Assembly (NCBI GenBank): GCA_001821395.1
Contig: MHLM01000010.1
Span: 1-57,064, forward strand
Direction: 5' to 3'
Length of the DNA: 57,064 nt
Source of the DNA: Candidatus Lloydbacteria bacterium RIFCSPHIGHO2_02_FULL_50_18
Lineage (GTDB): Bacteria > Patescibacteriota > Minisyncoccia > Phycocordibacterales > UBA6899
Shown here: in pieces, positions 6,001 to 24,054 of the stretch
Layout: every line of letters begins with the position of its first letter
Numbering within the stretch: the stretch's first letter is position 1
Program-made: the position numbers and the translations under genes
Notes under the pieces: generated by a model
The model's input: the letters and a program-made list of their open reading frames with translations, nothing else
What the model was told of the DNA's origin: nothing
The model's database searches: none

Positions 6001-7100
6001 TATTTCAGGTAACTTCCGCGGTTTCCATTCGAGATGTCACCGCGCAACTCCGTGGCACCAAGAAATTGCCAATGCCCCGCATGATACGCACGGACGAGCA
6101 CGCGATCATACTCCCCCGACGTGAATGCTCCTCGTCCCGCGAGCGAAAGTTCCAGTGTCGCTCCAAGGAGCGGATTCTTGTCGAGCGCACCGCCCAATCC
6201 AAAACCATCGTACTCCATGACGTGACACGTTTTGCCGAGTGTAGTGCAGAGCGCTACCGTGTATGGGTCTGCACTTTCAACGGTCGGAATATTCGTGATC
6301 TTCGGAGTTTCCGTTCCACTCGTCGCGACGTCCGTTCCGGATGCACTGTTAAGATCGATCACTTCAAGTGACGATGTTGCTCCATCGCCGTCCGTTCTGC
6401 CCGATGCGAGCGGTGGCACTGAAAGCGAACCGATCCCGCTCGAAATAAATTTGTCCGTAATGGGCAGAGGAGCAGATGCATCGTTCACCTCCGCGATCGT
6501 ACTCGTTGGAACCTCAAGAGCAAGAGCAGAACGAGGATCCGACACGCGAGAAAGGAATTCGAACATTGCTCGGTCAAGCCTTGATTGGATACTGCTTGAG
6601 GCGATCTGTTCCATGCTCGGTATCGGAAGCAGTGTCGGCGTCTCAATGTTCAACCCCGATGGAACGAATGAATCGGGAAATTGCGATGAGATGATCGGTG
6701 TCGATGTCGCGACGGGAGACACCTCTTCAGGGATGACTTCAGGAGTGAACGCAGGAACAAGCGAGGTATCTATCGATACCGCGGGTAGCACATTTTCCGA
6801 TAACCCGTTCGTTGATGTCGCAGCGAGCGTACTCGTTGAGGCCCGAGTACCGTAAAATACTTGTGCGGAATTCTCATGTGTAAAATCAGCAAGCTCTGCA
6901 TCCGGAGAAAGATCCTGCATGAGCGACGCTTCATCACTCTCCCAGCCGTCACTCATGAGAGCGCTCGGAAAGATGTATACATTCGCCTCTTTTTCCGCGA
7001 GCACAAATTGCGTAAATGCCCACGATATCCCGATGAGCAGCAGTGCACCAAAAACGATACGCGCGCGTAGAGAAAAAGAGCTATTGAGCCGCCGCAACAT
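1..7100 (-). CDS. Giant secreted/surface protein, partial (ATG at 7100-7098; C-terminus beyond window start). N-terminus MLRRLNSSFSLRARIVFGALLLIGISW is a signal peptide/anchor. Contains repeated phage-tail-collar-like modules with HxH motifs.
   Basis: Hand translation confirmed the frame is open at 7100-7020, ~3000-2940 and ~2340-2210. All reported minus-strand ORFs in 1..7144 lie in other frames and are Arg-rich (wrong-frame signature). No ORF in the track terminates in this frame, so it runs off the edge. Repeats such as STASTLNAPIGHTHSL and GAIGMFDVASSSLPTGWY (about 2290-2130) resemble the tail-collar consensus (GxIxMF...PxGW...TxTL...PxHxH). Confidence 0.6.
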   Translation of the reverse strand, partial: MLRRLNSSFSLRARIVFGALLLIGISWAFTQFVLAEKEANVYIFPSALMSDGWESDEASLMQDLSPDAELADFTHENSAQVFYGTRASTSTLAATSTNGLSENVLPAVSIDTSLVPAFTPEVIPEEVSPVATSTPIISSQFPDSFVPSGLNIETPTLLPIPSMEQIASSSIQSRLDRAMFEFLSRVSDPRSALALEVPTSTIAEVNDASAPLPITDKFISSGIGSLSVPPLASGRTDGDGATSSLEVIDLNSASGTDVATSGTETPKITNIPTVESADPYTVALCTTLGKTCHVMEYDGFGLGGALDKNPLLGATLELSLAGRGAFTSGEYDRVLVRAYHAGHWQFLGATELRGDISNGNRGSYLKYELSDIGDWEDLTDLKVVVEYDRTSDADASAYVDGIWINARYANDAIVDASPEEVALSGMNVRSALAAKDAEARKARRDQLTLPDGEALAFVNAQEYEGAILSVKTDKNIYDALGEGRTYVNVTNESPDPQVVRLQFHFPTEGASVRALSRFVHNVPYKVGQLRYDDVGYFCDTGWTVGTSSTAFHCATSDEVRSCDRLNDDRTNCITAGARVGLTEGTEYRDGWEDEALLPGAISDTEGLFAKAIDLLLNQLPPDIIPSVIAPIANLADSVVIQPGATAYFRADIAVPLNGRGDFFVEAAAQSGAYGLVRAEWDGSWNYRTHISIDNSNVTATGTFAVPISLDDASPDFWKHIASDGSDIRFVDEESGTELPYWVSRFDSTTRSGSAWVRVNEKGLGTSTTIAMYYGYATTTSRSDPAAPFRSALPAPRGLIFGGSQSDMTLHVIALDDHVRVSVPGKPEVVLKYGESALFDGMKPGTVVSADGPITASIEAPGANATFVPTGYLGDDFVIPGIGGERELALGTTGGEVTHAELDLPDGPAILDPVEGSIVMRGVTLSDSISLTGTQGMIAVLGTNAQSLSASLYPATMEDLYGFQVGKSVIGIGDDATALTIACGNEARQNIDGRRAGSSVNLNHCAAGGGLLADAVRVMDASTAIGLVDVSRDDLTSALPETEFASAYISPSDAVGVAVLCAPGAEAFAVGVFNSQGGLMASSTCAARGAYPGKTFITPEQGVFAAGSFVRSLSRDISRTFLAAIVPSMKASTDGSGHYGLIPLISPQMTRTPGALHPNISMGGEEFVIPGEHRKLDVDVDGREKDHVDTLLSKDREFSIRQMPSFTFKYKRQANSLLQGVRDVFGVKPFTVSRVVLKHVVAGDIPVDYDISYGDNNEWSVSLRDAHGNVRPGKYTLHVEIEEGGESYVDEYDFYWGVLAINFNKSMFTPGENAVISIGALSNNGNTICDAQLKMWVTDTVGAESEVSVTPSGLCDGNNVIDVPDYAATYLPAATGTYRVKLVRFDQDQNIASQVSDSFEVRATVPYSIERVGPTRIYPIAHYPMKIRVQANEAFEGNIVERVPGDFVFIDRGNANLEWGDVEHSFLTATWAVKLPAGGSIDLQYIFDAPDRSPDLYLLGPLEMQSTNGGADLTELRAWQIASDAAGKMMLFYDSAGALPPGWLCVSCATIDPFFEKLVVGSSSYNGLGGGTATHTPTAIAVVNLTTSTGVGENSTASTLNAPIGHTHSLTPTIAPSSNYPLYRDLRVIKSISAGDPGTIPAGAIGMFDVASSSLPTGWYRYAPLDGRYIRSQSSVTSSGGANTHGHAVTGTTSAPPQSGLRLRTGVTNGATDVAHTHTLTATSTDVVNNEPPYTEVLFARMSVASSTPNYLIGMWDDTPPAGWVNVSDAGGALAGQFLKGSTTYGSTGGGTSHIHANINGAVTGVANNLNDYRSNTANAQARAAHMHTVDISGFSDDSQLPPYVDVIFAKSLSGISVYAQDSFRFYDNTNAITPTDPWPQGASDYDENIEINTPGESISANTRLRIRMSLAITNATTSTSSVAFKLQYVAADDCPSALNWTDVAAMSATGVPWRGYNNTSVTHNATLPSYLLTSSTVAESYVEENNSAVNPNLIAQDGFAEWDWVVEQLQATSSTLYCFRMVETDGTPLDAYTNYPQILTNAAPNIPIEAAPFSYEKIGTTTPSIQFSSADTESNDIDYQIQISYSATFTSSVIDADSINNPELFSNITDPTNKAPFTSANIIEFKPVSGTLQNGATYWLRIRAKDTNNSNTWSDWNSAQSFTVDTAVTISTWHQTTRDQFQAATTFNGSNANATDSIVVNVGSTTATAYSDAIDFALHTTGTVWGSLTWNDREPSGSLLYQIEYSSPSSGWILVPDTSLPGNSAGFSNSGVSLLSIDPVDYPILRIKANFSVATQVVNEWSISWGYKVDTPTLYVSFDNQKIATRTPYFEFMAIDPQSDDLLYEIQWSTTANFAASTTRNSGAHA

Positions 7101-7414
7101 GAATGTAAATCGATTGTGCATGAAACAAAATACCAGTCCTCCAACGGGATCGGTTATGCTGTGTATTTTACCAAAAAATGGCTAAAAATGGTGTTATTTC
7201 TACGCAATAATGAGCAGTGAACAGTGGCTCAACCGCACCACATTTGCTCTATGGTAAAAGTTTTCCACAGGTTAGTCTCCGTCGTGCGTCTTCTTCATTT
7301 TTTGATTGACAAATTTTTCATTGGATGATAGAAAGTGCAAGGATTTTTCTATCTTGAAAAGGCGCTACCGTGGTACAAAAAATATTGGCACGTGCAACCG
7401 TATCAGAGGCATCA

Positions 7415-7767: not shown

Positions 7768-7798
7768 AAACGCCATCCGGAACGGACGGCGTTTTTTT
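7768..7798 (+). terminator. Rho-independent terminator after the 7415..7759 gene
   Basis: GC-rich hairpin aacgccatccgg aac ggacggcgtt followed by TTTTTTT, 9 nt after the TGA at 7757-7759. Confidence 0.55.
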
Positions 7799-8178: not shown

Positions 8179-9702
8179 CTACATGAGGAGCTTGCGGACG
8201 TCTTCCGCCTCTTTCGATATCAGCTCCTCCGAAAGATCGATCGCTTCATTGATGTTTTCCATGACCTCTCTGTCTTGAGCAGAAGGGTTCGGTTTTTGAA
8301 ATAAAGCTCCTGCCTGCTCCCCTATCTCCTCACGGAGTGCTGCAAAAATATTTCCCAAACTATCGCGGAGTTCATCCGCCTCACGTTTAGTGAGATACTT
8401 CTCTTTCCGAAACGCTTTTCGCTCATACCATAAATATCCGATCAGGAACGCAACAAGCGCAATAAGGAAAATGTTAGCGATAAGCGACCAGTCTGTTGGC
8501 TTTGGCGTATCGTCAACGGCGGCTTTTGCCGTCGCGGAAGGAACCTCTCCTTCGATCATAAACTTGCCGTCTACAGGAGTGTAATTCCCCGCTTTGTCAT
8601 AAGCCTTGAGCGTGGCGGAGTGCTCACCGGGTGTCTGGTTCGCTAGTGTATATTCACCATCTTTGATCTCGGCTAAGAGTATCTTTATCGGATTTCCCGC
8701 ATCAATGACAACTTCATAACGATCGATCCCCGACATCGTATCGGTTGCGGAGAATTTCATCTTTACATCGGTAGAAGAAGCGGGGACGGTAATATCCAGC
8801 GTGAATTCCGGTGGTGGCGTCTTGTCGACCATGATCTTTTTGTGCGTCACCGGACCCCAACCTCCTTCATTTTGATACTTCAAATGAAAGTACATCACCC
8901 CGTCGGTGAGTTGATCGAACTCCTTTTCATTGATCGCCGGATCGTAGCTCGTCTTAGGATCGGTCTTGGCACTCTTGTCGAGATCCATGCGCACGACCAT
9001 CACATCTGGCGGCAACTCCCACAAGAACCTTGCTTTGGGCGCATTGTAGTAAAGAGCCTCATCAGGATGAGATGTAGAAGTAACGTCCGGAGCTTCAGGT
9101 TTCGGTCCTAATGAGCCTACGTCGCCGCCCGAAGGAGCGGGAGGTGGTGGGGTGTTACTTGGAGCGGAGGCTGACACCGTATATGTGGCAATGCTTTTTG
9201 TACTTAAAATATCCGTACCTTTTCCGTCCGCCGCAAGTACAGAGCCCGTCGTGAAGGTGACATCGCTTTTCCCTTCTTTGACCCCCTTCAACGTGATGGT
9301 CAATATGGTCTTCTTTCCGGTAAGCCCGATCGTTCCCCCTCCGCCAAAGCTCAGTTTTCCTTCAGCGTTAGCAATGGTCGGCTCTTCCGGCCAGAATGAG
9401 AATGCTGAACTTGCCTTCGAGACACTTTCGAATGAAAGAATATTCTTATCAAAATTGATGACGGCATTCGCCGAGTTGAATGGTGCCGGCGACTCAACTG
9501 CAACAGTCACCGTAAGCGTCTTCCCTACCCCCATCGTTCCCGAAGGTGGACTGAACGAAAGCACCGCGCCCGTCGTCTGCACTTCTCCCGCCTGTTGCGC
9601 GAAAAGAATGCCCGGCGTACCGATGACCGCAAGTACGCAAAGGAAAATTCCAATAAGGCGTCTAGTAAGTGAGCGATGCATAAAGGTATGGCGGAGGAAC
9701 AT
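8179..9702 (-). CDS. Membrane-anchored surface protein: signal peptide, cohesin-like beta-sandwich domain, Pro-rich linker, C-terminal TM anchor, cytoplasmic coiled tail
   Basis: The ORF-track start at 9708 is GTG; ATGs at 9702 and 9681 both give MHRSLTRRLIGIFLCVLAV-type signal peptides. The N-terminal region GKTLTVTVAVESPAPFNSANAVINFDKNILSF...GKLSFGGGG...ILTITLKGVKEGKSDVTF matches the cohesin pattern. C-terminal hydrophobic stretch WSLIANIFLIALVAFLIGYLWY. Confidence 0.55.
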   Translation of the reverse strand: MFLRHTFMHRSLTRRLIGIFLCVLAVIGTPGILFAQQAGEVQTTGAVLSFSPPSGTMGVGKTLTVTVAVESPAPFNSANAVINFDKNILSFESVSKASSAFSFWPEEPTIANAEGKLSFGGGGTIGLTGKKTILTITLKGVKEGKSDVTFTTGSVLAADGKGTDILSTKSIATYTVSASAPSNTPPPPAPSGGDVGSLGPKPEAPDVTSTSHPDEALYYNAPKARFLWELPPDVMVVRMDLDKSAKTDPKTSYDPAINEKEFDQLTDGVMYFHLKYQNEGGWGPVTHKKIMVDKTPPPEFTLDITVPASSTDVKMKFSATDTMSGIDRYEVVIDAGNPIKILLAEIKDGEYTLANQTPGEHSATLKAYDKAGNYTPVDGKFMIEGEVPSATAKAAVDDTPKPTDWSLIANIFLIALVAFLIGYLWYERKAFRKEKYLTKREADELRDSLGNIFAALREEIGEQAGALFQKPNPSAQDREVMENINEAIDLSEELISKEAEDVRKLLM

Positions 9703-9708
9703 GGGCAC

Positions 9709-10224
9709 CTAGGTGGCGGAATCTACCCGCTCAACATGCATGCGCATCTTGTTTGCACTGTGACCCTTGAGCGGCAAATGAAGGACAAGGACACCGTCCT
9801 TTACTTTCGCTTGTGCGGCAGCTGCATCGACTTCTTGAGGAAGAATGATCTGTCTGAAAAATTTTCCCCATGCGCATTCTTCAAGAGTGAACCCGTCATG
9901 CTCTTCATCTTTGGATTGTACGCCCTGATTGATCGGTAGACTGCCTTCTCCCATGTGCGGCATAAGGTCCTCAGGCCGACGTGAGGTACCCTGGATCGTG
10001 ATGACATCATTGTCCCCTTCGATCGACACATCAATATCCTTGATCTCCGTTCCCGGCACCTGGGCATAGATCGTGATCTCAGTATCACCTTGTTCTACGT
10101 CGACCGGAAGCTGTGTCACGCCGGAAGGAATTTCCGACTTCGCAGGAAGATTAGCCGAGGAAACAGCATGGTCCTCCGAAACTCCGATTCCCTTCCCTTT
10201 GAGCTTTTGTAAAAAAGAACTCAT
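9709..10224 (-). CDS. Hsp20/alpha-crystallin family small heat-shock protein
   Basis: The alpha-crystallin core WGKFFRQIILPQEVD...AKVKDGVLVLHLPL is diagnostic of small HSPs. 171 aa. Confidence 0.85.
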   Translation of the reverse strand: MSSFLQKLKGKGIGVSEDHAVSSANLPAKSEIPSGVTQLPVDVEQGDTEITIYAQVPGTEIKDIDVSIEGDNDVITIQGTSRRPEDLMPHMGEGSLPINQGVQSKDEEHDGFTLEECAWGKFFRQIILPQEVDAAAAQAKVKDGVLVLHLPLKGHSANKMRMHVERVDSAT

Positions 10225-10410
10225 ATGATCAAAAAGTACAATTAACTAGTAACCCCAGCCTCCCTAAAACAAATTTCTAAAAGTTGTTCGGGCGAACATT
10301 TTTTATCAGAAAAAAATGTTTTAGCCCAAAATATTTACCACGGTAGAGTTAGATACATTATACGTGAGTTTACGAATGATGTGCAATGCATATGTGAACA
10401 AGAAGTGGAT

Positions 10411-10603
10411 ACCGCTCGGGTAATAACTTTTCGGAGCATATTTGCCCGCTGAGAGCGGTCGGGCAAAACCATCCTCAATATGAATGCCGCTTGCAAGGCC
10501 TAGCGGACCAAGCCATTCATCTGCAGGGGCAACTTTGTTTTCTTAAAAGCGTAGCGAATGAGAAATACAAGAAGTACCCTTGTGGCGCTCCGAAAGTCTT
10601 ACT
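10411..10603. repeat. Intergenic repeat D, copy 1 (candidate structured element); second copy at 23466..23671
   Basis: A ~120-bp core (CCGCTT..GCCATTC.TCTGC.GGGGC.ACTTTGTTTTCTTA...AG.GAAT.AGAAA.ACAAGAAGTACCC.TGTGGC.CTCC.AAAGT) is ~85% identical to 23555..23665. It carries the internal hairpin tttgcccgctgagagcggtcgggcaaa. Both copies sit immediately upstream of minus-strand genes. Confidence 0.5.
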
Positions 10604-10654
10604 TTCGCGTTCAGAGAAAATGCTTTGATCTTCACCCTATGAAGAAATAGATTT

Positions 10655-10690
10655 GTAGTATAAAAAAGGCGCTGTCTATACAGCGCCTTC
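10655..10690 (-). terminator. Rho-independent terminator downstream of the PmbA-like gene
   Basis: Hairpin aggcgctgt ctata cagcgcct (10667-10689), with the T-run on the minus strand (plus-strand aaaaaa at 10661-10666), 14 nt after the stop at 10703. Confidence 0.55.
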
Positions 10691-10702
10691 AAACATAACT
10701 AC

Positions 10703-12046
10703 CTAATCCCCTGCCACCATCATTTCATCGATCAAGCAGCTCGGGGCATTCGCTCCATAAGGATTATCGGAACAATCATCAGCCGGGATCATGTTCCGGA
10801 ACATCGCAAGCAAGTTCCCGGCAATGGTCACCTTATTCACCGCACGAACGATCTCCCCGTGCTCGATGAGAAAGCCTTCCGCTCCCACTGAATATGCTCC
10901 GGTCGCGATATTTGTTCCTCGACCCATGAGATCGGTGACGAGGAAACCCCGATCGATCTTGCGAATGAGCTCATCCAATGAATTCATCGAAGGACAGAGG
11001 AGCAGATTGAGTGCGCCCGATGCGTGCCCCGTTGATGAATGTAGACCAAGCTTTGAGGCGGACTCGATCGAGGTTGCCCACATCATGAGTCTTCCTTGGT
11101 CGGACAGCGTCCACGGCGTGGTCTTTACGCAATCGTCGTCAAAGAGCTCCGATCCTAGTCGACGCGGCAGATGCGGCTGCTCGATGATGCGCACGTCATC
11201 ACGGAAAATACGTGATCCGAGATGATCAAGCAAAAATGTCTCTTTCTGGTAGACACGTTCGCCACTAATGGCACCAAAGAACGCACCCAGCAGTCGCGGA
11301 GAAACTCGTTTATCGAAGAGCACTGGCATCGCTTCCGTTTTGATAGAACGCGCACCAAGCTGCTTCACTGCATACTCCCCTGCACGACGCGCACACTCCT
11401 CGTCTCCCATGAGATCGGCACAGTGGGTTGCCATATGCCAGTGCGATGACGATTTCATCTCGCCGGCTTTTTCTGCAATGACACTTGTGCTTTTTGAATA
11501 TTGCGTCGACGGTGAGACGACCGAGAAACCGTTCGACAAGAGTTGGACCGACATATCGCTTTGAAAACCAAAACTGGTTCCCTCGCTGCGGGCAATTCCC
11601 GGAAACGCACACGCACATCGGTCGAGCGCAAGCGCCCGCATCTTTAGCTCCTTCAGTGTCGGCGGCAGACTTCCGTCGCAACGATCCAGTTGTGCAATAC
11701 GCCCCGGAAGTTCCTCCACTCCACACGGCCATTCATCCGGCCGAGCGAGGCGAACATGTTTGTTCCCGCTCACCTGAAGGGCCGAAAGTACTGCTTCTTT
11801 TGCGGTACGCGCCAGATCATCGTTCTCGAACGAGGAACTGCTCGCATACCCGCGCCTATTTCCGACGATCGCCGTGACCATGAAACCCGCACTACTTGAA
11901 AATGCGACATCATCGAGCACACCATCACGCACGGTGACAGAACGTTCCGTCGATGTATCTACTGACACAACGGCGTCGGTTGCACCGGCACTCTTTGCAT
12001 GGCGCAGCAATTGCTTGCCGACACGCATCATCTCTTTTTGATCCAT
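10703..12046 (-). CDS. pmbA: PmbA/TldE-family metalloprotease (TldD partner)
   Basis: The sequence from MDQKEMMRVGKQLLRHAKSAGATDAVVSVDTSTERSVTVRDG onward matches PmbA. The ORF-track N-terminal extension (to 12160) is Arg-rich and overlaps tldD. The ATG at 12046 is preceded by GAGGGG, 10 nt after the tldD stop. Confidence 0.75.
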   Translation of the reverse strand: MDQKEMMRVGKQLLRHAKSAGATDAVVSVDTSTERSVTVRDGVLDDVAFSSSAGFMVTAIVGNRRGYASSSSFENDDLARTAKEAVLSALQVSGNKHVRLARPDEWPCGVEELPGRIAQLDRCDGSLPPTLKELKMRALALDRCACAFPGIARSEGTSFGFQSDMSVQLLSNGFSVVSPSTQYSKSTSVIAEKAGEMKSSSHWHMATHCADLMGDEECARRAGEYAVKQLGARSIKTEAMPVLFDKRVSPRLLGAFFGAISGERVYQKETFLLDHLGSRIFRDDVRIIEQPHLPRRLGSELFDDDCVKTTPWTLSDQGRLMMWATSIESASKLGLHSSTGHASGALNLLLCPSMNSLDELIRKIDRGFLVTDLMGRGTNIATGAYSVGAEGFLIEHGEIVRAVNKVTIAGNLLAMFRNMIPADDCSDNPYGANAPSCLIDEMMVAGD

Positions 12047-12057
12047 GATATCCCCTC

Positions 12058-13500
12058 TTATTCCGGTGATGTTTCTGTTCCGCCGACGGTCACTCCGCCG
12101 GAAAGTCGCAATGTCGGTTGGCCAATACCGACCGGCACGCTCTGCCCACCCTTGCCGCATGTTCCTGCGCCGCCAAGCCTGCTATCGTTTCCGACGAGGT
12201 CGACGTGCGTGAGCACTGTGGCACAGTTCCCAATGAGCGTTGCGCCAACGACAGGTGTCGTCAACTTCCCGTCCTCGATCTTGTAGGCCAGCTCACAACT
12301 GAACACAAATTGTCCCGTGACCGGGTCAACTTGTCCTCCGCCAAAAGATGGCATGTACAGCCCGCGTTTTGTTGCGGCAATGATGTCCTCGGGTGGCGTC
12401 GCGCCTCCCACCATCAATGTATTCCGCATGCGCACCTGCGTACGATATTCATACGACTCGCGGCGACCGCTACCGGTCGGACGCATCGCAAGCAATCTCG
12501 CGCTCTGTCTGTCATGCATGAAGCCGACCAACATGCCGTCTTTGATAAGTACGGTGCGTTCTGTTGGTGTCCCCTCATCATCGATGGTGAGTGACCCCCT
12601 CTCGTCTGCCAGCGTGCCATCATCAACGACCGTCACCAGCTCGCTTCCCACGCGCTTCCCGATAAGGTCCGCAAAGACCGTCGTCTTCCGCCATACACAG
12701 TCCGCTTCAAGCCCATGACCGATCGCTTCATGAAGCAATACCCCGGCCCAACCCGGACCCAGGACGACAGGCATGACGCCCGAAGGACACGGTCCCGCGC
12801 GAAGCATTTCTTTTGCATTCTTGATCGCGCGATCGACCTCAGGTTTCCAAATTCCGGGAGTGATGAGCCTTGCATAATCGTACCGCCCGCCGATACTTGC
12901 GGATGCACCTTCGCGCTTCCCACCTTCGGCACATTGCGCCGTGACGGACATACTCGCCATAGGGCGAACATCGCTCGCGATAGTTCCGTCCGCACGCACA
13001 ATGAGCACACTAACGAGACTTGCTGCAAAATATGCATCAACGTTCGTCACCGCTTTATCTTTTCGCGCATAACGGTCGATCGCACGGAGTACCTTCACCC
13101 GTGCCGCAAGCGACAGCGAAGTGAGCTTACCGGCATAACGAGCTTTCGGTTGCGGAAACTCTTCCCGCACCTCGTACCGCTGCTTTGCCGTTGCGATCTC
13201 GCGCAGCTCCTTGCCCGCGCGAATGATCGCCCGTGCAGTGATCGTATTACCGTGCGCATAGAGCACTGATTCTCCGTTCACGCGGCGCAGTCCAAATCCT
13301 TGGTCCACGCTTCGCGATGGAGATTCAATACGCCCGTCGTCAAGCGAAACACTTTCACTTTCCGAGCGCTCCAAATAGAGCTCTCCGTCTTCCGCACCCA
13401 AGAGTGCGCGCGTTACGAGCGCATTCATGCCCGCCGCATCAAGGCCAAGTAGCCTCCCGAAATAGCGGACGGGGTCGATCGCGTTATCAGTATTTTTCAC
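12058..13500 (-). CDS. tldD: TldD-family metalloprotease
   Basis: MKNTDNAIDPVRYFGRLLGLDAAGMNALVTRALLGAEDGELYLERSESESVSLDDGRIE... is a typical TldD sequence. GTG start at 13500 with AAGGAGA 5 nt upstream. Confidence 0.8.
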   Translation of the reverse strand: MKNTDNAIDPVRYFGRLLGLDAAGMNALVTRALLGAEDGELYLERSESESVSLDDGRIESPSRSVDQGFGLRRVNGESVLYAHGNTITARAIIRAGKELREIATAKQRYEVREEFPQPKARYAGKLTSLSLAARVKVLRAIDRYARKDKAVTNVDAYFAASLVSVLIVRADGTIASDVRPMASMSVTAQCAEGGKREGASASIGGRYDYARLITPGIWKPEVDRAIKNAKEMLRAGPCPSGVMPVVLGPGWAGVLLHEAIGHGLEADCVWRKTTVFADLIGKRVGSELVTVVDDGTLADERGSLTIDDEGTPTERTVLIKDGMLVGFMHDRQSARLLAMRPTGSGRRESYEYRTQVRMRNTLMVGGATPPEDIIAATKRGLYMPSFGGGQVDPVTGQFVFSCELAYKIEDGKLTTPVVGATLIGNCATVLTHVDLVGNDSRLGGAGTCGKGGQSVPVGIGQPTLRLSGGVTVGGTETSPE

Positions 13501-13651
13501 TCGCTTCTCCTTAAGATGAACGTTATTTCAACGTACGAAATCCTTGCTCAAACTAACACAACCGCCACCAAAGTCGAGGCCGATAATGCCGGGGTTTTTA
13601 AAAGATCCGCTTCTTCAACGAAGAACGGATGCACTTAAAAATAGAAGTATC

Positions 13652-13776
13652 GGGTAGCGTGTAATTTGCGATGCAGAACGCGAAGCAAACAAAACGTGAA
13701 ACGAGGCGTACTCGGAGTACGTTGAGTGAGCGTTGCAGTTTGCGACAAAGTGCTGCGCGCAAATTACACGCTACCC
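13652..13776. repeat. Long inverted repeat: perfect 19-bp arms GGGTAGCGTGTAATTTGCG/CGCAAATTACACGCTACCC separated by 87 bp, overlapping the stop codon of 13771..15531
   Basis: Arms at 13652-13670 and 13758-13776. The spacer has its own hairpin (gcgtactcggagtacg). The minus-strand transcript would have TATTTTTA 5 nt after the stem, so this may be an unusually long terminator or a MITE-like element. Confidence 0.5.
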
Positions 13777-15531
13777 TGTCCAGTTGGCGAGCATGATCGA
13801 AAAGTCCACAAGATTCACCGTCCCATCCTGGTTGATGTCTGACACAGGGTCTGCACCTTTCCAATTGAAGAGCAATATCGAAAAGTCGATGAGATTCACC
13901 TTCTTGTCTTTGTTCAAGTCTGAACGATTTGAAAAATCGGGATTCGGAGAGCCGCCTATCCCGATATAGACGATCGGACTCAAAAGACTCTGGTCTTTCT
14001 TAGAGATCTGCGAAAGGGCTTTCACTTCAAAGGTCCCCTTCAGCAGTCCATCAGTAGGCAGCGTCATGCTCCAAGAGCCATTCCCATTCGCTGTCGTTGT
14101 TCCCGTAACGATCTTTCCCGACAGGGCATTCCCCTGCATGTTCATGATCGCAAGCACGGGGACGAGTGGTGCCCCATAACCGCTTAATCGTATCGTGTCA
14201 CCAACACCGATGGTCGTTGAAGCGGCAGTGATCGTTGGAGAAACATACACGGGGGCGATGATATTGTTCGTGCGGGCGATAAGATAGATCGTCGAGGAAT
14301 ACGTTGAGGAGAGCCTGCCCTTTTCATCGCGCACATAGACCCCCCATGTATAAGTGCCACGCTGCAGGTCGGTGAATTTTTCCGAAAAATCACCGCTCTG
14401 CGAAACGGTTCCCTCTCGTACGATCACACCGTCTTTTAATATCACGAAGGCAGAGAGCGGCGCGGCCTTTCCTTCAAGCGTCACGTCACCTCCGTTCATA
14501 AAAAGACCACCACCACCACCGGGACCCGATATGCCACCGCCGCCGGGAGAAGCAGGAGGTGGTGGCGGCGGTAAAGGAGGTGTGCTGGACGCTCCCGGTT
14601 CGACGCCTACCTCAAAATAAATAAGCATGTCGTCCGAATTCGCTACCAACGATGGTGTCTGACACCGTACATAAAAACTATAAATGGTATTCGTTGCCAC
14701 CGCCTCGGAACGATAGTGAAGCGATCCAAAATTCGCTGCGGTAAAACTCGTACTCCCCAGCATGTTCGTGTAGAGCACTCCGCTCGTTGTCGCATAGCGA
14801 CATGTTGCCGGGATATCGGTATTGAGCGATAACCAAACATTCTGTGTGGTACCCGGCAACAGCCCAGAAGGAAGACCGTTGCTCCGCGTCGGTTCGAAGA
14901 TCGGCAGCTCAACCGAGATACCCACCGGGAGAATGATGACAACGACTGTTGATCCGAAATCCAATTCACCATTGAGTACATTAGTGGTCAAAAGACGCAG
15001 GTGGCGCGAACCGACCGAAGCGGGATTTTCAATCGATAAAGTTCCAACCCCGCCGAACGTCGCAATGTCACCGATAGTGATCTTCACCGTATCCCCCGCA
15101 AGAATTCCCGCTCCGGAAGCGAGCGAAAAGACAATCTGACCGGATGCACCGGAAGTAACAGCGACGCCGATATTTGCCGCACTTGGTGTCGCCGCAAGCG
15201 TACGGTTTGTGAATGGTCCGGACGATGTACCTGCAACAGACAGATCGATATCCAAAAAACTCAATGCCGCGGGAATGATAAACCCCTCAGTAGGGCTGAT
15301 CACAATATGTCCGCTTGGAGGTATCGCCGTTGTGGCAGTGAACTGAATGACATGTGAGGTCGTCGTCGCTCCGGGCGCTGAGTTCGATATGGTGTCACTG
15401 ACAAAAGAAAGCGTCCCCGCATACGCAAACGGGGTCGATATGAAAAAAAAGAAAGCAGCAGAAACCCCGAGTGCGAGCGAGCGTACATATCGGCGTTGTT
15501 GATTAAAATGATGTAGGGAAAATTGTCTCAT
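13771..15531 (-). CDS. Secreted protein with a Pro/Gly-rich region and a C-terminal type I dockerin domain
   Basis: Signal peptide at the N-terminus. The C-terminus DLNKDKKVNLIDFSILLFNW...DINQDGTVNLVDFSIMLANW shows two dockerin Ca-binding repeats (DxNxDGxVNxxD). A PPLPPPPPPASPGGGG linker is present. Confidence 0.7.
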   Translation of the reverse strand: MRQFSLHHFNQQRRYVRSLALGVSAAFFFFISTPFAYAGTLSFVSDTISNSAPGATTTSHVIQFTATTAIPPSGHIVISPTEGFIIPAALSFLDIDLSVAGTSSGPFTNRTLAATPSAANIGVAVTSGASGQIVFSLASGAGILAGDTVKITIGDIATFGGVGTLSIENPASVGSRHLRLLTTNVLNGELDFGSTVVVIILPVGISVELPIFEPTRSNGLPSGLLPGTTQNVWLSLNTDIPATCRYATTSGVLYTNMLGSTSFTAANFGSLHYRSEAVATNTIYSFYVRCQTPSLVANSDDMLIYFEVGVEPGASSTPPLPPPPPPASPGGGGISGPGGGGGLFMNGGDVTLEGKAAPLSAFVILKDGVIVREGTVSQSGDFSEKFTDLQRGTYTWGVYVRDEKGRLSSTYSSTIYLIARTNNIIAPVYVSPTITAASTTIGVGDTIRLSGYGAPLVPVLAIMNMQGNALSGKIVTGTTTANGNGSWSMTLPTDGLLKGTFEVKALSQISKKDQSLLSPIVYIGIGGSPNPDFSNRSDLNKDKKVNLIDFSILLFNWKGADPVSDINQDGTVNLVDFSIMLANWTG

Positions 15532-15566: not shown

Positions 15567-16508
15567 TCACTTCACACAGCGGAATCCGACGGCAGATCCG
15601 GCAAACGAAGGCTGAATTGTGGCGTTGATCGTAAAAATTCCCGCCTTGTCGGTCAAATTCCAAAATCCGCCGCGGAACATTCCTCTCACGCTATTCGGAT
15701 CAAGGAAGAGGTAGTCATCTCCAAATATCGCGGATGATGTTGCTGCCGTCTGCACGGGAACACCGTCCGTATCCGCCTCGGTGATATATCCCTCGGTCGG
15801 GAGTGGGTGCCCGTTGAGTGTCCCATCGACGACATTCGCGTCAACCCATTCCCACACGTTACCCACCATGTCATATGCGCCAAATGAGGAGACGCACCCG
15901 TCGTGTACTCCCGAGAGTTCAGCCTGACTCACGCCAACGCGCCCGAGGACGCACCCCGACTTCCCTCCATTCACCGTATCGGGAGTGCCAAGCGCAGCAC
16001 GATACCATTCTCCGGGAGCAGGGAGTCTCTTCCCTGCTCGTGCACATAGGGCCATTGCCTGAGAAAGAGAGGCATTCACCCACGGGTCTTTCCCTTTTAC
16101 TGATTCCGGCTTACACGTCGCAATCGCGAGATTCTCATTGGTCTGCATATCACTCGACGGGTGCACGCGCGGACACGTCAGGCCCGTCGTCACTTCGTAT
16201 CGGTCGATACAGAACCCTCCGAGAGAGGTAGGAACATAGACCATCTCCGGTGGGCAACGCAATACTTCCGTCGATCTTCCCGTTCCGGCAAGTAAGAGTG
16301 CATCGCTGATATGGAATGAGTCGCTTGCCTTACTCGCAAGCGTCGTCAGCAACATCGCACCGATCACGACGAGCGATCCTTTCCACAAACCACCTCCGCG
16401 CCTTTTCTTTGGCGGAAGAGTAGGCAACGGAGGCGCATACTGCACGCGTCCCTCTTTCCGAATGGTCAATCGCACCGGCGCGGGAGTGATGTGTGGTCGT
16501 TCGTGCAT
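15567..16508 (-). CDS. Formylglycine-generating-enzyme (FGE/SUMF1)-domain protein, membrane-anchored
   Basis: GNVWEWV, GGFWN and GFRCV motifs of the FGE-sulfatase domain, with an N-terminal TM segment. Confidence 0.65.
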   Translation of the reverse strand: MHERPHITPAPVRLTIRKEGRVQYAPPLPTLPPKKRRGGGLWKGSLVVIGAMLLTTLASKASDSFHISDALLLAGTGRSTEVLRCPPEMVYVPTSLGGFCIDRYEVTTGLTCPRVHPSSDMQTNENLAIATCKPESVKGKDPWVNASLSQAMALCARAGKRLPAPGEWYRAALGTPDTVNGGKSGCVLGRVGVSQAELSGVHDGCVSSFGAYDMVGNVWEWVDANVVDGTLNGHPLPTEGYITEADTDGVPVQTAATSSAIFGDDYLFLDPNSVRGMFRGGFWNLTDKAGIFTINATIQPSFAGSAVGFRCVK

Positions 16509-16514
16509 GTGATC

Positions 16515-16949
16515 TTATAATCGTGTGGTGAACTCGTCAGCGTGCGATGACACATGGCCTTCTACCGGCGTGTCACGTTTCCAGTCAAAATAAAAATTGA
16601 GCGAAATGAGCATGAGCAGGAGCCCCGTGATACCAAAAAGCACATTGAGAGTAATGCGATCGTTGCCGGAGAGGAGCGCCTGTTCACGGAGCGCGAGGTC
16701 TTGTTCACGCATCGTGAGCGACTTATCCTTTTGGTCGAACTGTGCGGCCAACGCATTGTATTCATTCGGTGCGACCGTTCCGGCGACCCCGATGATGCCG
16801 GCAATGTTCTCCGTTGCACGAAGCGCAATATTTTTGACTGGCGTCAAACCGGACAATGAAAGTTGTGCAAAAACAGCGATCATTACAAGAAGAAGTGCGG
16901 CGTATTGCACTGCTACTTTTGTATTCGGTTTATTCTCCCAAATGGCCAT
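16515..16949 (-). CDS. Small membrane protein (hypothetical), 2 TM helices plus a coiled-coil
   Basis: ATG-started ORF with hydrophobic segments. Co-oriented with the upstream FGE gene, 7 bp apart. Confidence 0.45.
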   Translation of the reverse strand: MAIWENKPNTKVAVQYAALLLVMIAVFAQLSLSGLTPVKNIALRATENIAGIIGVAGTVAPNEYNALAAQFDQKDKSLTMREQDLALREQALLSGNDRITLNVLFGITGLLLMLISLNFYFDWKRDTPVEGHVSSHADEFTTRL

Positions 16950-17600: not shown

Positions 17601-17727
17601 GTGATGCTTTCAAATTGAGATGAAGAACGAGTTGAAATACAGATTTTGCTAGCAAGCCTTACTCCTGTAAGGTGAGGCGCAAAATCTGTATTTCAACGAA
17701 GTAATTCGCTCAATTTGGAAACATCAC
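17601..17727. repeat. About 127-bp imperfect palindrome with a perfect 18-bp inner stem (ttgaaatacagattttgc / gcaaaatctgtatttcaa) overlapping the stop codon of 17724..18788
   Basis: Outer arms gtgatgctttcaaattgag... / ...ctcaatttggaaacatcac are imperfect. The inner arms at 17631-17648 and 17678-17695 are perfect. No U-tract follows on either strand. Confidence 0.5.
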
Positions 17728-18788
17728 CCGAAATAGAAGAAGAGGATCAATAGTCCCACAATGATCGCAAACAATAACCCGATCGCCACTGCCGCCAAAC
17801 GCGAGATACCTCGCGCACCGCGCACCGCTCCCCCTCCGCGTGTACCCACCACTCCCGCTAACTGTCGACGCACATAGAGGCGGATCAAGACGTAGAGCAC
17901 GAGAATGAATGTGAAGAGTCCTCCAACGACCGGCCCGATGATGTTCATGGGGAGTATCCAGAATGATGTCACCGAGGAAATGGTCTGATTCCCTCCGTCA
18001 ACGAGAGGGATGACGAGCGCGACGACCGCCTCGAAGTGTCCGATCACAAATCCTTCAGGCTGCCACTTTACCTCATACTTTCCCGTACTATTCGGGGAAA
18101 TAACGTATGCGGTCTCATTGACGAGCAGTGATTCGACCTTCTTTCCGAACATATCGGTGATGTCGATCAAGCCTTGCGGTCGAGAAAGCGTATTCCCTTT
18201 ATTCTCCGCTTCAACGGTAAAGATCACGTTTGGAGAGCCGTAAATGAGCTTGTCGGTGAGGAATGCACGCATGCGTGTGTCTTCTTTGACATCACCCGCC
18301 ATTTGAAAATGAAGAATAGCCCCAATGTCAAACCCGACGGCAGAACCCTCCTTGAGATCGGGCGGTTTCTGCGTCAGAAACAATCCCGCAAGGTGTGAGC
18401 CGGGGCGCGCGTCAGCGGGAAATTTAACGGTAAAATGCAGCGTCGCACTACCGCCGGCAGGAACATCGAGCATTGATTCTGAATACGTGATCCACGACGC
18501 GAGCTCGGTCGCATTTGCATCGGCACCCTCCACGTAAACCGGCTGATGATCTAGAGCGATGGTGGCAATGTTCCGGGCAACGGGGTATAGCACAGTCCCC
18601 TGGTCGCCGCGATTTTCGACACGCATCGAATATGAGTGTTCCGAACTCGGCTCAACCTTATCTTCGATCGTCGTCGGGGAAAGATTAAAACTCACCTTAT
18701 TTTGCGCGAAGACCGCAAACGGCGTCATCAGCATGGCGGAACATGCGACAACAACAGCACCTCTTAATATCGTATTAGATCTCAACAT
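17724..18788 (-). CDS. Surface protein with signal peptide, beta-rich ectodomain, C-terminal TM helix and Arg/Gly-rich tail (DUF916/DUF3324-like architecture, assigned from memory)
   Basis: Signal peptide MLRSNTILRGAVVVACSAMLMTPFAVFA and C-terminal FWILPMNIIGPVVGGLFTFILVLYVLIRLYVRRQ. Paralogous to 24432..25817 and 25838..27109, which share the FWI(I/M)PW...TM motif. Confidence 0.5.
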   Translation of the reverse strand: MLRSNTILRGAVVVACSAMLMTPFAVFAQNKVSFNLSPTTIEDKVEPSSEHSYSMRVENRGDQGTVLYPVARNIATIALDHQPVYVEGADANATELASWITYSESMLDVPAGGSATLHFTVKFPADARPGSHLAGLFLTQKPPDLKEGSAVGFDIGAILHFQMAGDVKEDTRMRAFLTDKLIYGSPNVIFTVEAENKGNTLSRPQGLIDITDMFGKKVESLLVNETAYVISPNSTGKYEVKWQPEGFVIGHFEAVVALVIPLVDGGNQTISSVTSFWILPMNIIGPVVGGLFTFILVLYVLIRLYVRRQLAGVVGTRGGGAVRGARGISRLAAVAIGLLFAIIVGLLILFFYFG

Positions 18789-23775: not shown

Positions 23776-24054
23776 CTATCGAAAAAGAGAGTCGTGTGAT
23801 CCCAAGTCAACGAGGAGAAGTACGAGTATACCCTCGTGCTTCTGATACACGAGCAGTATGTCATTCCCAACGTGGCACTCGCGATAATTCTTTAGATCAC
23901 CAGAGAGTTGATGGTCACGATACCCGGTTGAAAGCTTTTCTCCGACGGCAAGTGCGTCAATCACGACATCGAGATCATGCTGAACAAAATCCTTGTGCCG
24001 CAAAATCCGCTTGTATGCTTTTCGATATGCTTTTGTGGAGCGAACAATATACAT
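23776..24054 (-). CDS. relE: RelE/YafQ-family type II toxin (mRNA interferase)
   Basis: HQLSGDLKNYRECHVGNDILLVYQKHEGILVLLLVDLGSH matches the YafQ/RelE C-terminal catalytic region. 92 aa, 2 bp downstream of the antitoxin gene. Confidence 0.75.
   Translation of the reverse strand: MYIVRSTKAYRKAYKRILRHKDFVQHDLDVVIDALAVGEKLSTGYRDHQLSGDLKNYRECHVGNDILLVYQKHEGILVLLLVDLGSHDSLFR

What the first reader, a model, noticed from the sequence alone, without database searches (positions are those of the whole stretch)
8179..15531. Cohesin-like anchored protein and dockerin-bearing secreted protein within 4 kb
8179..9702 carries an N-terminal module matching the cohesin pattern (G.T.TV.V.....P......A.INFD...L.F.SV...S...........GK.SF.GG.......G.....I.I.LK..K.GKS.V.F) plus a C-terminal membrane anchor. 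13771..15531 ends in a textbook type-I dockerin duplication (DLNKDKKVNLIDFSIL...DINQDGTVNLVDFSIM). Together they form a minimal, non-cellulosomal surface-tethering pair. The dockerin protein is co-oriented with an FGE-domain enzyme and a small membrane protein.
Basis: partly seen in the sequence, partly recalled or inferred. Interest (0 to 1): 0.5.

Follow-up and report, generated by a model that had tools for sequence, protein, structure and literature searches.

The report
Conserved cohesin–dockerin surface pair in Patescibacteria
A tiny uncultured groundwater bacterium (Candidatus Lloydbacteria) encodes a membrane-anchored protein with a cohesin module and, nearby, a secreted non-enzymatic protein ending in a dockerin; the two genes stay together in most related species, so they probably form a surface tether, although binding has not been shown.

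Summary
8179..9708(-) has a cohesin module above Pfam's curated cut-off, and its AlphaFold model superposes on solved cohesins. 13771..15531(-) ends in a dockerin, also above cut-off, with two complete Ca-loop/helix segments. The window is from Candidatus Lloydbacteria (Patescibacteria).

The pair is not isolated. In 86 related loci the order is dockerin protein – Hsp20 – cohesin/TM protein – giant DUF2341 protein. Hsp20 sits directly upstream of the cohesin gene in 81/81 loci. The dockerin protein is upstream in 64/72, and a giant ORF is downstream in 70/75. TldD/PmbA, which create the "4 kb" gap, lie between the two genes only in the window and L001 among the seven annotated loci.

Each locus has exactly one cohesin and one dockerin. 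The dockerin is by far the most conserved part of its protein. The cargo is four Ig-like domains with no enzyme.

- The dockerin is compressed (27-residue repeat spacing), not textbook.
- The TM helix is followed by a conserved 81-aa cytoplasmic tail.
- The FGE-like protein lacks the catalytic cysteines.

I file this as a new variant of a known kind, of moderate interest.

The parts
8179..9708 (-). Gene for the cohesin-bearing type I membrane protein (509 aa from GTG 9708; 507 aa from ATG 9702 in the public annotation)
   Evidence: ORF; P0001 100% identical; AF2 mean pLDDT 87.8
9595..9708 (-). N-terminal signal peptide / hydrophobic helix (residues ~1-38)
   Evidence: Hydropathy segment 13-40; AF2 helix 11-38; cleavage is inferred, not tested
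9172..9567 (-). Cohesin module (residues 48-179), the membrane-distal domain
   Evidence: Pfam PF00963 31.4 bits vs cut-off 24.1. Foldseek to solved cohesins: 2xdh TMt 0.76, rmsd 2.8 A; 6kgd_A TMt 0.76, rmsd 2.7 A; top hit 2w1n, a cohesin-FN3 construct
9088..9168 (-). Pro/Thr/Ser-rich flexible linker (residues 181-207)
   Evidence: Sequence; pLDDT below 50 at residues 188-198
8554..9084 (-). Two FN3/Ig-like stalk domains (residues 209-294 and 304-385)
   Evidence: AF2 beta domains; FN3-chain and SiiE hits in Foldseek; weak Big_13 and DUF7743 hits
8425..8490 (-). Transmembrane helix (residues 407-428, WSLIANIFLIALVAFLIGYLWY)
   Evidence: Hydropathy; AF2 helix starting at 407; K/R-rich stretch immediately after it
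8182..8424 (-). Conserved cytoplasmic helical tail (residues 429-509)
   Evidence: Mean column conservation 0.66-0.71, the highest in the protein together with the cohesin. The tail motif recurs in 570-900-aa family variants
9709..10224 (-). Hsp20/alpha-crystallin protein whose stop abuts the cohesin gene start
   Evidence: Pfam HSP20 E 6.7e-12; directly upstream of the cohesin gene in 81 of 81 loci; gaps of -4 to 36 nt in the annotated loci
10703..13500 (-). PmbA and TldD metallopeptidase genes, an insertion between the dockerin gene and Hsp20; not part of the conserved system
   Evidence: Pfam; present at this position only in the window and L001 and absent in L002-L006. Terminator-like hairpin at 10690..10665
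13771..15531 (-). Gene for the secreted dockerin-bearing protein (586 aa)
   Evidence: ORF; P0121 100% identical; AF2 mean pLDDT 89.6
13957..15408 (-). Four beta-sandwich domains D1-D4 (residues 42-199, 216-308, 348-429, 447-525) with a disordered Gly/Pro linker at 312-345; no catalytic domain
   Evidence: AF2. Foldseek returns only multi-Ig chains; the top hit is the pentameric S-layer protein 7ptp_A, with Sap and SbsB S-layer proteins also listed. Pfam finds only Big_6 and Big_13
13774..13920 (-). C-terminal dockerin module (residues 538-586): two 22-residue Ca-loop plus helix segments joined by 5 residues, ending ...NWTG-stop
   Evidence: Pfam PF00404 26.9 bits vs cut-off 22.9; loops found; AF2 helices 547-555 and 574-585. 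Conservation 0.82 vs 0.43-0.54 for D1-D4; present at the C-terminus of nearly all 109 homologues
15567..16508 (-). FGE-sulfatase-fold protein lacking the catalytic cysteine pair
   Evidence: Pfam PF03781 E 2.2e-12; best PDB match SUMF2. The C-terminal sequence RGGFWNLTDKAGIFTINATIQPSFAGSAVGFRCVK has no CxxxxC. Present in 0-3 copies in related loci
16515..16949 (-). Small two-TM membrane protein (144 aa), conserved upstream neighbour
   Evidence: Hydropathy; a 126-152-aa gene occupies the same position in L001-L006
3..7181 (-). N-terminal 2,390 or so residues of a giant DUF2341 surface protein, running off the window's left end; conserved downstream neighbour of the cohesin gene
   Evidence: Stop-free frame; DUF2341 E 1.3e-15; orthologues of 4,405-7,532 aa. 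An ORF of at least 1,000 aa starts within 1.5 kb downstream in 70 of 75 loci

Best explanation
This is a one-cohesin, one-dockerin surface-tethering pair inside a gene cluster conserved across the Paceibacteria (Parcubacteria) branch of Patescibacteria. The 509-aa protein is exported by Sec and held in the membrane by a single TM helix (407-428). It projects two FN3-like domains, a Pro/Thr linker and a distal cohesin outward, and keeps a conserved 81-residue helical tail in the cytoplasm. The 586-aa protein is secreted. It is a chain of four Ig-like domains with no enzyme, and it ends in a compact, Ca-binding dockerin. The dockerin most likely plugs into the cohesin, so the Ig-chain protein is displayed non-covalently on the cell. 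It would act as a surface-coat or adhesion component, alongside the giant DUF2341 protein encoded next door. Shown here: the module identities, the folds, the topology features, the 1:1 stoichiometry per locus, the conserved synteny, and the exceptional conservation of the dockerin. Inferred: the physical cohesin-dockerin contact, Ca dependence, cleavage of the signal peptides, and the biological role of the displayed protein.
For: Both modules pass Pfam's curated cut-offs. The cohesin fold has AF2 pLDDT above 90 and superposes on solved cohesins (2xdh and 6kgd_A, TMt 0.76, rmsd 2.7-2.8 A). The best overall hit is the cohesin-FN3 construct 2w1n. The dockerin has both loops with D1, N3, D5, N9 and D12, each followed by a predicted helix. 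D538, N540, D542, D549, D565, D576, W584, T585 and G586 are invariant in 78 homologues. Synteny: the dockerin protein lies upstream on the same strand in 63 of 72 loci with at least 2.5 kb of upstream sequence, plus L019, whose module is masked by N but ends in WTG. The median distance is 865 nt. This holds down to about 31-38% identity. Seventeen further homologue pairs share a contig. There is exactly one cohesin and one dockerin module per locus. The dockerin is the most constrained part of its protein, at 0.82 mean column identity with 57% of columns at 0.9 or more, against 0.43-0.54 for D1-D4. That pattern fits a fixed binding partner. The residues at least 90% conserved in the cohesin cluster in N78, K98-S101-F105-W106-E109-P110, G117-K118-F121-G123-G124 and L158-A159-G162-G164. 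By strand order these are strands 3, 5, 6 and 8, the dockerin-binding face of canonical cohesins; this mapping is an inference. Hydropathy and K/R distribution place the cohesin outside and the tail inside. A working non-cellulosomal precedent exists: the Archaeoglobus fulgidus pair (PMC12484212; PMC9705933; structure 2xdh appears).
Against: Eight of 72 loci keep Hsp20, cohesin and the giant gene but have no dockerin protein upstream. So the cohesin protein either has a role independent of this neighbour or its partner is encoded elsewhere in those genomes. The dockerin is atypical: repeat spacing is 27 residues, there is no linker helix, and Pfam matches only half of its profile. Sequence similarity of the cohesin to solved cohesins is marginal (E 0.05-0.09). 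In the window the two genes appear to lie in different transcription units: a terminator-like site follows PmbA and a promoter-like site precedes Hsp20 (consensus matches only). The far C-termini of the syntenic giant proteins were not seen, so a second dockerin there cannot be excluded.
Confidence: 0.62

Rival explanations
1. The cohesin protein's real partner is something other than the neighbouring dockerin protein. Candidates are the giant DUF2341 protein encoded immediately downstream, bound through an unseen C-terminal or non-canonical dockerin-like module, or a host-cell ligand. The dockerin of the 586-aa protein would then bind a different receptor or the cell wall.
For: The giant ORF is linked to the cohesin gene about as tightly as the dockerin protein is (70/75 vs 64/72). 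Eight loci keep Hsp20, cohesin and the giant gene without the dockerin protein. Clostridium perfringens cohesins, including the top structural hit 2w1n, are known to bind non-classical dockerin-like modules; this is from established knowledge and was not tested here.
Against: No dockerin module of this type occurs in the first roughly 3,300 residues of any giant ORF in 70 loci. Four of the ten retrieved homologues of the giant fragment (P0234, P0235, P0237, P0238) end in a different C-terminal motif (...Y..VP.F). For three of them (P0235, P0237, P0238) the last roughly 180 residues are homologous to the C-termini of the window's 383/385/391-aa paralogues, which suggests a separate anchoring route. 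The extreme conservation of the one dockerin, and the 1:1 module count per locus, are most simply explained by the adjacent cohesin.
Confidence: 0.2
2. The two modules do not bind each other or any specific partner. The 'cohesin' is just one more Ig-like spacer on a membrane protein whose function lies in its conserved cytoplasmic tail together with Hsp20. The 'dockerin' is an EF-hand-like Ca-binding cap that stabilises a secreted Ig-chain protein.
For: The cytoplasmic tail is as conserved as the cohesin. Hsp20 adjacency is absolute at 81/81, tighter than the dockerin linkage. Many non-cellulosomal cohesin and dockerin modules have no demonstrated partner (general knowledge).
Against: A purely structural Ca cap would not need near-invariance of the helix faces (DFSILLFxW and DFSI[ML]L[FA]NWTG) across proteins that are about 31% identical overall. 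The conserved cohesin residues lie in surface strands rather than only in the core (inference). The co-location of the only cohesin and the only dockerin in 64/72 loci would remain unexplained.
Confidence: 0.13
3. This is a chance juxtaposition, or a degenerate remnant of a cellulosome acquired by horizontal transfer.
For: In this window the two genes are separated by unrelated housekeeping genes (TldD, PmbA, Hsp20) and are probably transcribed separately.
Against: Synteny is conserved in dozens of species down to about 31% identity. There are no glycoside hydrolases, CBMs or multi-cohesin scaffoldins in the window genes scanned. Both genes are under strong purifying selection.
Confidence: 0.02

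Closest known systems
Cellulosomal anchoring scaffoldin plus type I dockerin (e.g. Clostridium thermocellum OlpA/SdbA-type anchors; Ruminococcus flavefaciens ScaE)
   Same: A cell-bound protein presents a cohesin at the end of a linker or stalk. A secreted protein carries a C-terminal dockerin with two duplicated Ca-loop/helix segments. The near-identical helices (DFSILLFNW and DFSIMLANW) recall the internal symmetry behind the dual binding mode.
   Different: There are no carbohydrate-active enzymes, no CBM and no multi-cohesin scaffoldin. Anchoring is by a TM helix with a conserved cytoplasmic tail rather than SLH repeats or a sortase signal. The dockerin spacing is 27 residues rather than about 34-36, with no linker helix. 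The cargo is a chain of Ig-like domains. The host is an ultrasmall Patescibacterium.
Non-cellulosomal cohesin-dockerin pair of Archaeoglobus fulgidus (cohesin structure PDB 2xdh)
   Same: It is a single cohesin and dockerin in an organism that does not degrade cellulose. 2xdh is among the best single-domain structural matches (TMt 0.76, rmsd 2.8 A). That pair does bind and has been used for surface display (PMC12484212, PMC9705933).
   Different: It is archaeal, with a different domain context. Sequence identity is only about 15%. It has no Hsp20 or giant-protein gene cluster.
Clostridium perfringens GH84C cohesin-FN3 module (PDB 2w1n) and its toxin-complex cohesin-dockerin pairs
   Same: It is the best overall structural hit (E 8.3e-11). 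A cohesin is followed directly by an FN3 domain, as in this protein, and the assembly is non-cellulosomal.
   Different: In C. perfringens the modules sit on secreted glycoside hydrolases and assemble enzymes with one another. Here the cohesin is on a membrane anchor and the dockerin is on a non-enzymatic protein.
WxL / Csc cell-surface complex clusters of Firmicutes (WxL-domain proteins plus DUF916-type WxLIP membrane proteins)
   Same: The wider locus also holds three SP plus two-domain plus C-terminal-TM paralogues. One has a weak WxLIP_PGBD hit, and an orthologue has a hit on record. Several secreted proteins share one C-terminal domain. This amounts to a second, non-covalent surface-anchoring scheme beside the cohesin-dockerin pair.
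   Different: The Pfam WxL domain is not detected. The window's WxLIP_PGBD score is below cut-off. The resemblance of the shared C-terminal domain to WxL is recalled from memory only.

Membership tests
Cohesin (Pfam PF00963) | Profile HMM score at or above the curated gathering cut-off | tested here: met
   31.4 bits vs 24.1, E 2.6e-7, residues 60-167 matching profile positions 11-128 of 139. Also on record for most homologues.
Cohesin (Pfam PF00963) | Nine-stranded jelly-roll beta-sandwich fold superposable on solved cohesins | tested here: met
   AF2 pLDDT 94-98 over residues 50-180. Foldseek: 2xdh TMt 0.76 at 2.8 A; 6kgd_A TMt 0.76 at 2.7 A; also 4ums, 5lxv and 2w1n.
Cohesin (Pfam PF00963) | Conserved dockerin-binding face (strands 8-3-6-5) | tested here: inconclusive
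   Residues at least 90% conserved cluster in four stretches that by strand order are strands 3, 5, 6 and 8. No coordinates or complex were available to confirm that they form one surface.
Cohesin (Pfam PF00963) | Binds a dockerin | not testable with these tools
Dockerin type I (Pfam PF00404) | Profile HMM score at or above the curated gathering cut-off | tested here: met
   26.9 bits vs 22.9, E 5.5e-6, but a single stretch (residues 522-553) covering profile positions 21-52 of 57.
Dockerin type I (Pfam PF00404) | Two duplicated segments, each with an EF-hand-like Ca loop (D1, N/D3, D5, N/D9, D12) followed by a helix | tested here: met
   D538-N540-D542-N546-D549 and D565-N567-D569-N573-D576. 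AF2 helices at 547-555 and 574-585, pLDDT 82-91.
Dockerin type I (Pfam PF00404) | Canonical size (about 60-70 residues) with about 34-36 residues between the two loops and a linker helix | tested here: not met
   Loop-to-loop distance is 27 residues, with a 5-residue linker and no linker helix. It is 31 in the distant subgroup. Solved type I dockerins 5nrm_B and 2y3n_B show about 34-36.
Dockerin type I (Pfam PF00404) | Ca-dependent folding and cohesin binding | not testable with these tools
   Needs ITC or pull-down with and without EDTA.
Cellulosome | Dockerins borne by carbohydrate-active enzymes; scaffoldin with several cohesins and a CBM | tested here: not met
   The dockerin protein has only Ig-like domains. 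There is one cohesin and one dockerin per locus. No GH or CBM family was found in the 20 window proteins scanned.
Anchoring scaffoldin (SLH- or sortase-anchored) | SLH repeats or an LPXTG sorting signal as the cell-wall anchor | tested here: not met
   No SLH family hit at E up to 0.1. No LPxTG motif was seen on reading the protein sequence. Instead there is a TM helix at 407-428 plus an 81-aa cytoplasmic tail.
Formylglycine-generating enzyme (FGE/SUMF1) | FGE-sulfatase fold | tested here: met
   PF03781 47.6 bits vs 23.3, E 2.2e-12.
Formylglycine-generating enzyme (FGE/SUMF1) | Catalytic cysteine pair (CxxxxC near the C-terminus; C336/C341 in human FGE) | tested here: not met
   The C-terminal region RGGFWNLTDKAGIFTINATIQPSFAGSAVGFRCVK has only the terminal FRC cysteine. 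The best PDB match is non-catalytic SUMF2. The residue numbering comes from established knowledge.
WxL/Csc-type surface complex | WxLIP (DUF916) peptidoglycan-binding domain protein with a C-terminal TM, plus WxL-domain proteins | tested here: inconclusive
   The 354-aa protein scores 18.2 bits on WxLIP_PGBD against a cut-off of 27.3. An orthologue in L087 has an unmarked hit on record. No Pfam WxL hit even at E up to 10.

The most novel reading that the evidence does not exclude
The cohesin/TM protein, its obligate Hsp20 neighbour, the dockerin-bearing Ig-chain protein and the giant DUF2341 protein together form a lineage-wide envelope apparatus of Paceibacteria. In this reading, the cohesin-dockerin plug anchors the cell's surface coat (an S-layer-like or host-attachment layer) to the membrane. 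The conserved cytoplasmic tail couples the outside complex to a cytoplasmic alpha-crystallin-domain protein for assembly, quality control or signalling. This would be the first cohesin-dockerin system serving as a core envelope anchor rather than an enzyme organiser, and the first small heat-shock-type protein dedicated to a surface anchor.
Probability: 0.2. Interest if true: 0.75.

Novelty: new variant of a known kind. Interest (0 to 1): 0.45.

Why it matters
Patescibacteria (CPR) are ultrasmall and mostly uncultured, and they are thought to live attached to host cells. How their envelope is built, and how they hold surface proteins, is largely unknown. This analysis gives a concrete, testable anchoring module that is conserved in at least 244 loci among species-representative genomes. 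It consists of a TM-anchored single cohesin and one extremely conserved, unusually compact 49-residue dockerin on a non-enzymatic Ig-chain protein. Both are embedded with a giant putative adhesin. If binding is confirmed, it would extend cohesin-dockerin biology from enzyme scaffolding to core envelope architecture in a major bacterial radiation. It would also supply a very small orthogonal cohesin-dockerin pair for protein engineering. The absolute Hsp20 linkage and the conserved cytoplasmic tail are unexplained and could point to an inside-outside coupling.

Tried and rejected
1. Complex prediction. I built 19 paired cohesin-(GGGGS)6-dockerin chimeras from syntenic pairs.

2. Inter-protein covariation on 77 non-redundant syntenic pairs. 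I abandoned this because the dockerin is almost invariant: 57% of columns are at least 90% conserved, so there is no signal to correlate.

3. Search for full-length orthologues of the giant protein, to inspect their C-termini for a dockerin. The homologue search returned only 10 distant or partial proteins, none with a dockerin. The 10-kb flanks never reach the end of the syntenic giants, and apparently complete ones look like frameshift breaks.

4. Sequence-only search of the PDB with the cohesin family profile gave only marginal cohesin hits (5aoz and 5m2o, E 0.05-0.09). Fold comparison was needed.

5. I tested whether the protein replacing the dockerin protein in L018 is a TM-anchored homologue, which would have been a natural anchor swap. 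It is not homologous.

6. I tested whether domain D1 of the dockerin protein is homologous to the N-terminal domain of the 383-391-aa paralogues. BLASTP was not significant. Only a short shared motif is seen by eye.

7. Rfam and tRNA scans of the window found nothing.

8. Literature. No paper in the library describes a cohesin-dockerin system in Patescibacteria. Giant DUF2341 proteins in the phylum have been noted (PMC11809585).

Full report
**Observation**

All genes discussed are on the minus strand. The ORF 8179..9708 (509 aa from a GTG; 507 aa from the ATG at 9702) and the ORF 13771..15531 (586 aa) exist as described. They are identical to public hypothetical proteins of Candidatus Lloydbacteria bacterium RIFCSPHIGHO2_01_FULL (P0001 and P0121). 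The window is therefore from a Parcubacteria-group member of the Patescibacteria/CPR.

- Pfam places a Cohesin domain at residues 60-167 of the first protein (31.4 bits, cut-off 24.1).
- Pfam places a Dockerin_1 domain at the end of the second (26.9 bits, cut-off 22.9).
- The two quoted loops are the only dockerin-type loops in a six-frame scan of the 57 kb.
- Family-specific HMMs find exactly one cohesin and one dockerin in the window.

**Anatomy of the cohesin protein**

An AF2 model built from 87 homologues has mean pLDDT 87.8. In order, it shows:

| Residues | Feature |
|---|---|
| 11-38 | N-terminal hydrophobic helix (signal peptide) |
| 48-179 | Beta-sandwich (cohesin) |
| 181-207 | Disordered Pro/Thr linker |
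| 209-294, 304-385 | Two further beta domains |
| from 407 | One long helix that contains the TM segment (407-428) and continues into the cytoplasm |
| 477-508 | Second helix |

Foldseek against the PDB puts the Clostridium perfringens GH84C cohesin-FN3 construct (2w1n) first. Single cohesins superpose well: 2xdh from A. fulgidus and 6kgd_A from C. acetobutylicum both give TMt 0.76 at 2.7-2.8 A. The other two domains match FN3/Ig chains.

Hydropathy and the K/R-rich stretch after the TM helix place the cohesin outside and the last 81 residues inside. The "C-terminal membrane anchor" is therefore real, but it is followed by a cytoplasmic tail. That tail, together with the cohesin, is the best conserved part of the protein.

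**Anatomy of the dockerin protein**

AF2 on 78 homologues gives mean pLDDT 89.6:

| Residues | Feature |
|---|---|
| up to ~38 | Signal peptide |
| 42-199, 216-308, 348-429, 447-525 | Four beta-sandwich domains D1-D4 |
| 312-345 | Disordered Gly/Pro linker |
| 538-586 | Dockerin, with helices at 547-555 and 574-585 |

Foldseek returns only multi-Ig chains. The top hit is an archaeal S-layer protein (7ptp_A), and the Sap and SbsB S-layer proteins are also listed. Pfam adds only Big_6 and Big_13. The cargo is therefore structural, not enzymatic.

The dockerin has complete Ca-loop signatures (D1, N3, D5, N9, D12) in both segments. However, the segments are joined by only 5 residues, giving 27 residues from loop to loop. 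The solved type I dockerins it matches best show about 34-36. It is a compressed variant rather than a textbook type I module.

**Evidence from relatives**

Both proteins belong to large, full-length-conserved families. Seven look-ups of homologues retrieved loci L001-L006 and L087, at 31-81% identity. All show the same gene order:

- one to three secreted proteins of about 380 aa;
- a membrane protein of about 355 aa;
- a small TM protein;
- zero to two FGE-like genes;
- the dockerin protein;
- Hsp20;
- the cohesin protein;
- a giant DUF2341 protein of 4,405-7,532 aa in L001-L004 and L006 (split into smaller genes in L005 and a 564-aa protein in L087).

An eighth look-up (L088) sits on a short contig and shows only Hsp20, the cohesin protein and a protein of 2,079 aa.

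Nearly all are labelled Patescibacteria, Paceibacteria, Lloyd-, Kaiser-, Nomura- or Adlerbacteria. I searched the 86 loci then held (L001-L086) with my own HMMs:

| Feature relative to the cohesin gene | Loci |
|---|---|
| Hsp20 directly upstream | 81 of 81 |
| Dockerin module upstream, same strand (including one masked by N) | 64 of 72 |
| ORF of at least 1,000 aa starting within 1.5 kb downstream | 70 of 75 |

The median distance from the dockerin module to the cohesin module is 865 nt. No locus has a second cohesin or dockerin.

Among the seven loci with gene calls, TldD/PmbA lie between the two genes only in the window and L001. The "within 4 kb" spacing is therefore the stretched version of an arrangement that is normally tighter.

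**Constraint**

Across 77 non-redundant syntenic pairs, the dockerin has mean column identity 0.82, with 57% of columns at 0.9 or more. Domains D1-D4 of the same protein score 0.43-0.54. The helix faces DFSILLFxW and DFSI[ML]L[FA]NWTG are essentially fixed.

In the cohesin, the residues at least 90% conserved fall in four stretches: N78; K98 to P110; G117 to G124; and L158 to G164. By strand order these correspond to strands 3, 5, 6 and 8, which form the face that binds dockerins in canonical cohesins. This is an inference, because no coordinates were available.

Because the dockerin hardly varies, covariation analysis was uninformative.

**Most likely mechanism**

The membrane protein presents a distal cohesin on an FN3 and Pro/Thr stalk. 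The secreted Ig-chain protein docks into it through its Ca-binding C-terminal dockerin and is thereby displayed on the cell. It would probably be a surface-coat or adhesion component, next to the giant DUF2341 protein. Such giant proteins have been proposed to mediate adhesion or host interaction in Patescibacteria (PMC11809585).

- Shown: module identity, folds, topology features, 1:1 stoichiometry, synteny and constraint.
- Inferred: the physical interaction, Ca dependence and the biological role.
- Confidence: about 0.6.

**Rivals**

- The cohesin's true partner could be the giant protein or another ligand. Eight loci keep Hsp20, cohesin and the giant gene without the dockerin protein, and the giants' far C-termini were not seen.
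  - Against this, no dockerin of this type occurs in the first roughly 3,300 residues of any giant.
  - Four retrieved homologues of the giant fragment end in a different motif...Y..VP.F. For three of them the C-terminal domain is homologous to that of the window's three 383-391-aa paralogues, and the window's 1,777-aa protein ends in the same motif.
- The modules could be non-binding structural elements. In that case the tail and Hsp20 would be the functional core.
- Chance juxtaposition is excluded by the synteny.

**Comparison with known systems**

It works like a minimal anchoring scaffoldin plus type I dockerin. It is close in kind to the non-cellulosomal pairs of A. fulgidus and C. perfringens. 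It is not a cellulosome: there are no CAZymes, no CBM, and only a single cohesin. It differs from known anchoring scaffoldins in four ways:

- a TM anchor instead of SLH repeats or a sortase signal;
- a conserved cytoplasmic tail;
- an obligate sHSP neighbour;
- a compressed dockerin.

No paper in the searchable library describes a cohesin-dockerin system in Patescibacteria. I therefore rate it a new variant of a known kind. Interest is 0.45: not surprising in principle, since non-cellulosomal cohesins and dockerins are known to be widespread. It is, however, a lineage-wide and directly testable envelope module in a poorly understood radiation.

- The FGE-domain protein lacks the catalytic cysteine pair, and its best solved relative is non-catalytic SUMF2. 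It is probably a binding or structural protein, not an enzyme.
- In this window the dockerin gene and the Hsp20-cohesin pair look like separate transcription units. A terminator-like hairpin lies at 10690..10665, a promoter-like site at 10385..10357, and a terminator-like hairpin at 7794..7768. These are consensus matches only and were not enriched over shuffles.

Noticed in passing
window 3..7181 (-): A stop-free frame of 2,393 codons runs off the left end of the window. It is the N-terminal part of a giant secreted protein with a DUF2341 domain (E 1.3e-15). Orthologues in related loci are 4,405-7,532 aa. It does not appear in the ORF list because it is truncated by the window edge.
   Followed up: partly
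window 9709..10224 (-) and 8182..8424 (-): The Hsp20 gene's stop abuts the cohesin gene's start, and Hsp20 sits directly upstream of the cohesin gene in 81 of 81 related loci. The cohesin protein's 81-residue cytoplasmic tail is strongly conserved, and its ...A.D.SEE...KE..D..K motif recurs in 570-900-aa family variants. A functional link between the sHSP and the tail is unexplained.
   Followed up: partly
window 19034..20185, 20608..21765, 21805..22980 and 27368..32701 (all -): Three secreted paralogues of 383-391 aa and a 1,777-aa protein all end in ...Y..(V/C)(V/T)P(T/I)F. The last roughly 180 residues of the paralogues are homologous (E 1e-14 to 1e-6) to the C-termini of giant proteins P0235, P0237 and P0238. 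This is a shared C-terminal domain of unknown function, possibly a second anchoring signal. Pfam finds no WxL domain.
   Followed up: partly
window 17724..18788, 24432..25817, 25838..27358 (all -): Three proteins each combine a signal peptide, an extracellular region and C-terminal TM segments. The first two are clear paralogues (29% identity, E 2e-32); the third has the same layout but was not compared directly. The first has a sub-threshold WxLIP_PGBD (DUF916) hit. An orthologue in L087 has a hit on record, which hints at a Csc/WxL-like surface complex beside the cohesin-dockerin pair.
   Followed up: partly
window 23776..24054 (-) and 24057..24338 (-): Two small adjacent ORFs (92 and 93 aa) sit in the gap inside the surface-protein cluster. 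By eye they look like a YafQ/RelE-type toxin and a DinJ/RelB-type antitoxin. They were not run against any profile library.
   Followed up: no
window 15567..16508 (-): The FGE-sulfatase-fold protein lacks the catalytic CxxxxC cysteine pair, and its best solved relative is non-catalytic SUMF2. Related loci carry 0-3 tandem copies of this gene upstream of the dockerin protein.
   Followed up: partly
window 10703..13500 (-): The TldD and PmbA ORFs overlap by 103 nt as listed. The PmbA orthologue in L001 is 447 aa, against 485 aa for the window ORF, so the real PmbA start is probably about 38 codons downstream. At this position the pair is present only in the window and L001 and is absent from L002-L006.
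   Followed up: partly
loci L015, L017 and others; L047; L085: Many genome records carrying this Paceibacteria-type cluster are titled 'uncultured Candidatus Saccharibacteria' (binchicken TPA assemblies). One is titled Ectothiorhodospiraceae (L047) and one Candidatus Elulimicrobium (L085). These are probably generic or mis-binned labels rather than a true wider distribution.
   Followed up: no
proteins P0261, P0266, P0276, P0282, P0296 and others: Family variants of about 800-900 aa carry two cohesin modules separated by hydrophobic segments, plus the same C-terminal TM and tail. They could be real two-cohesin anchors or merged gene calls.
   Followed up: no
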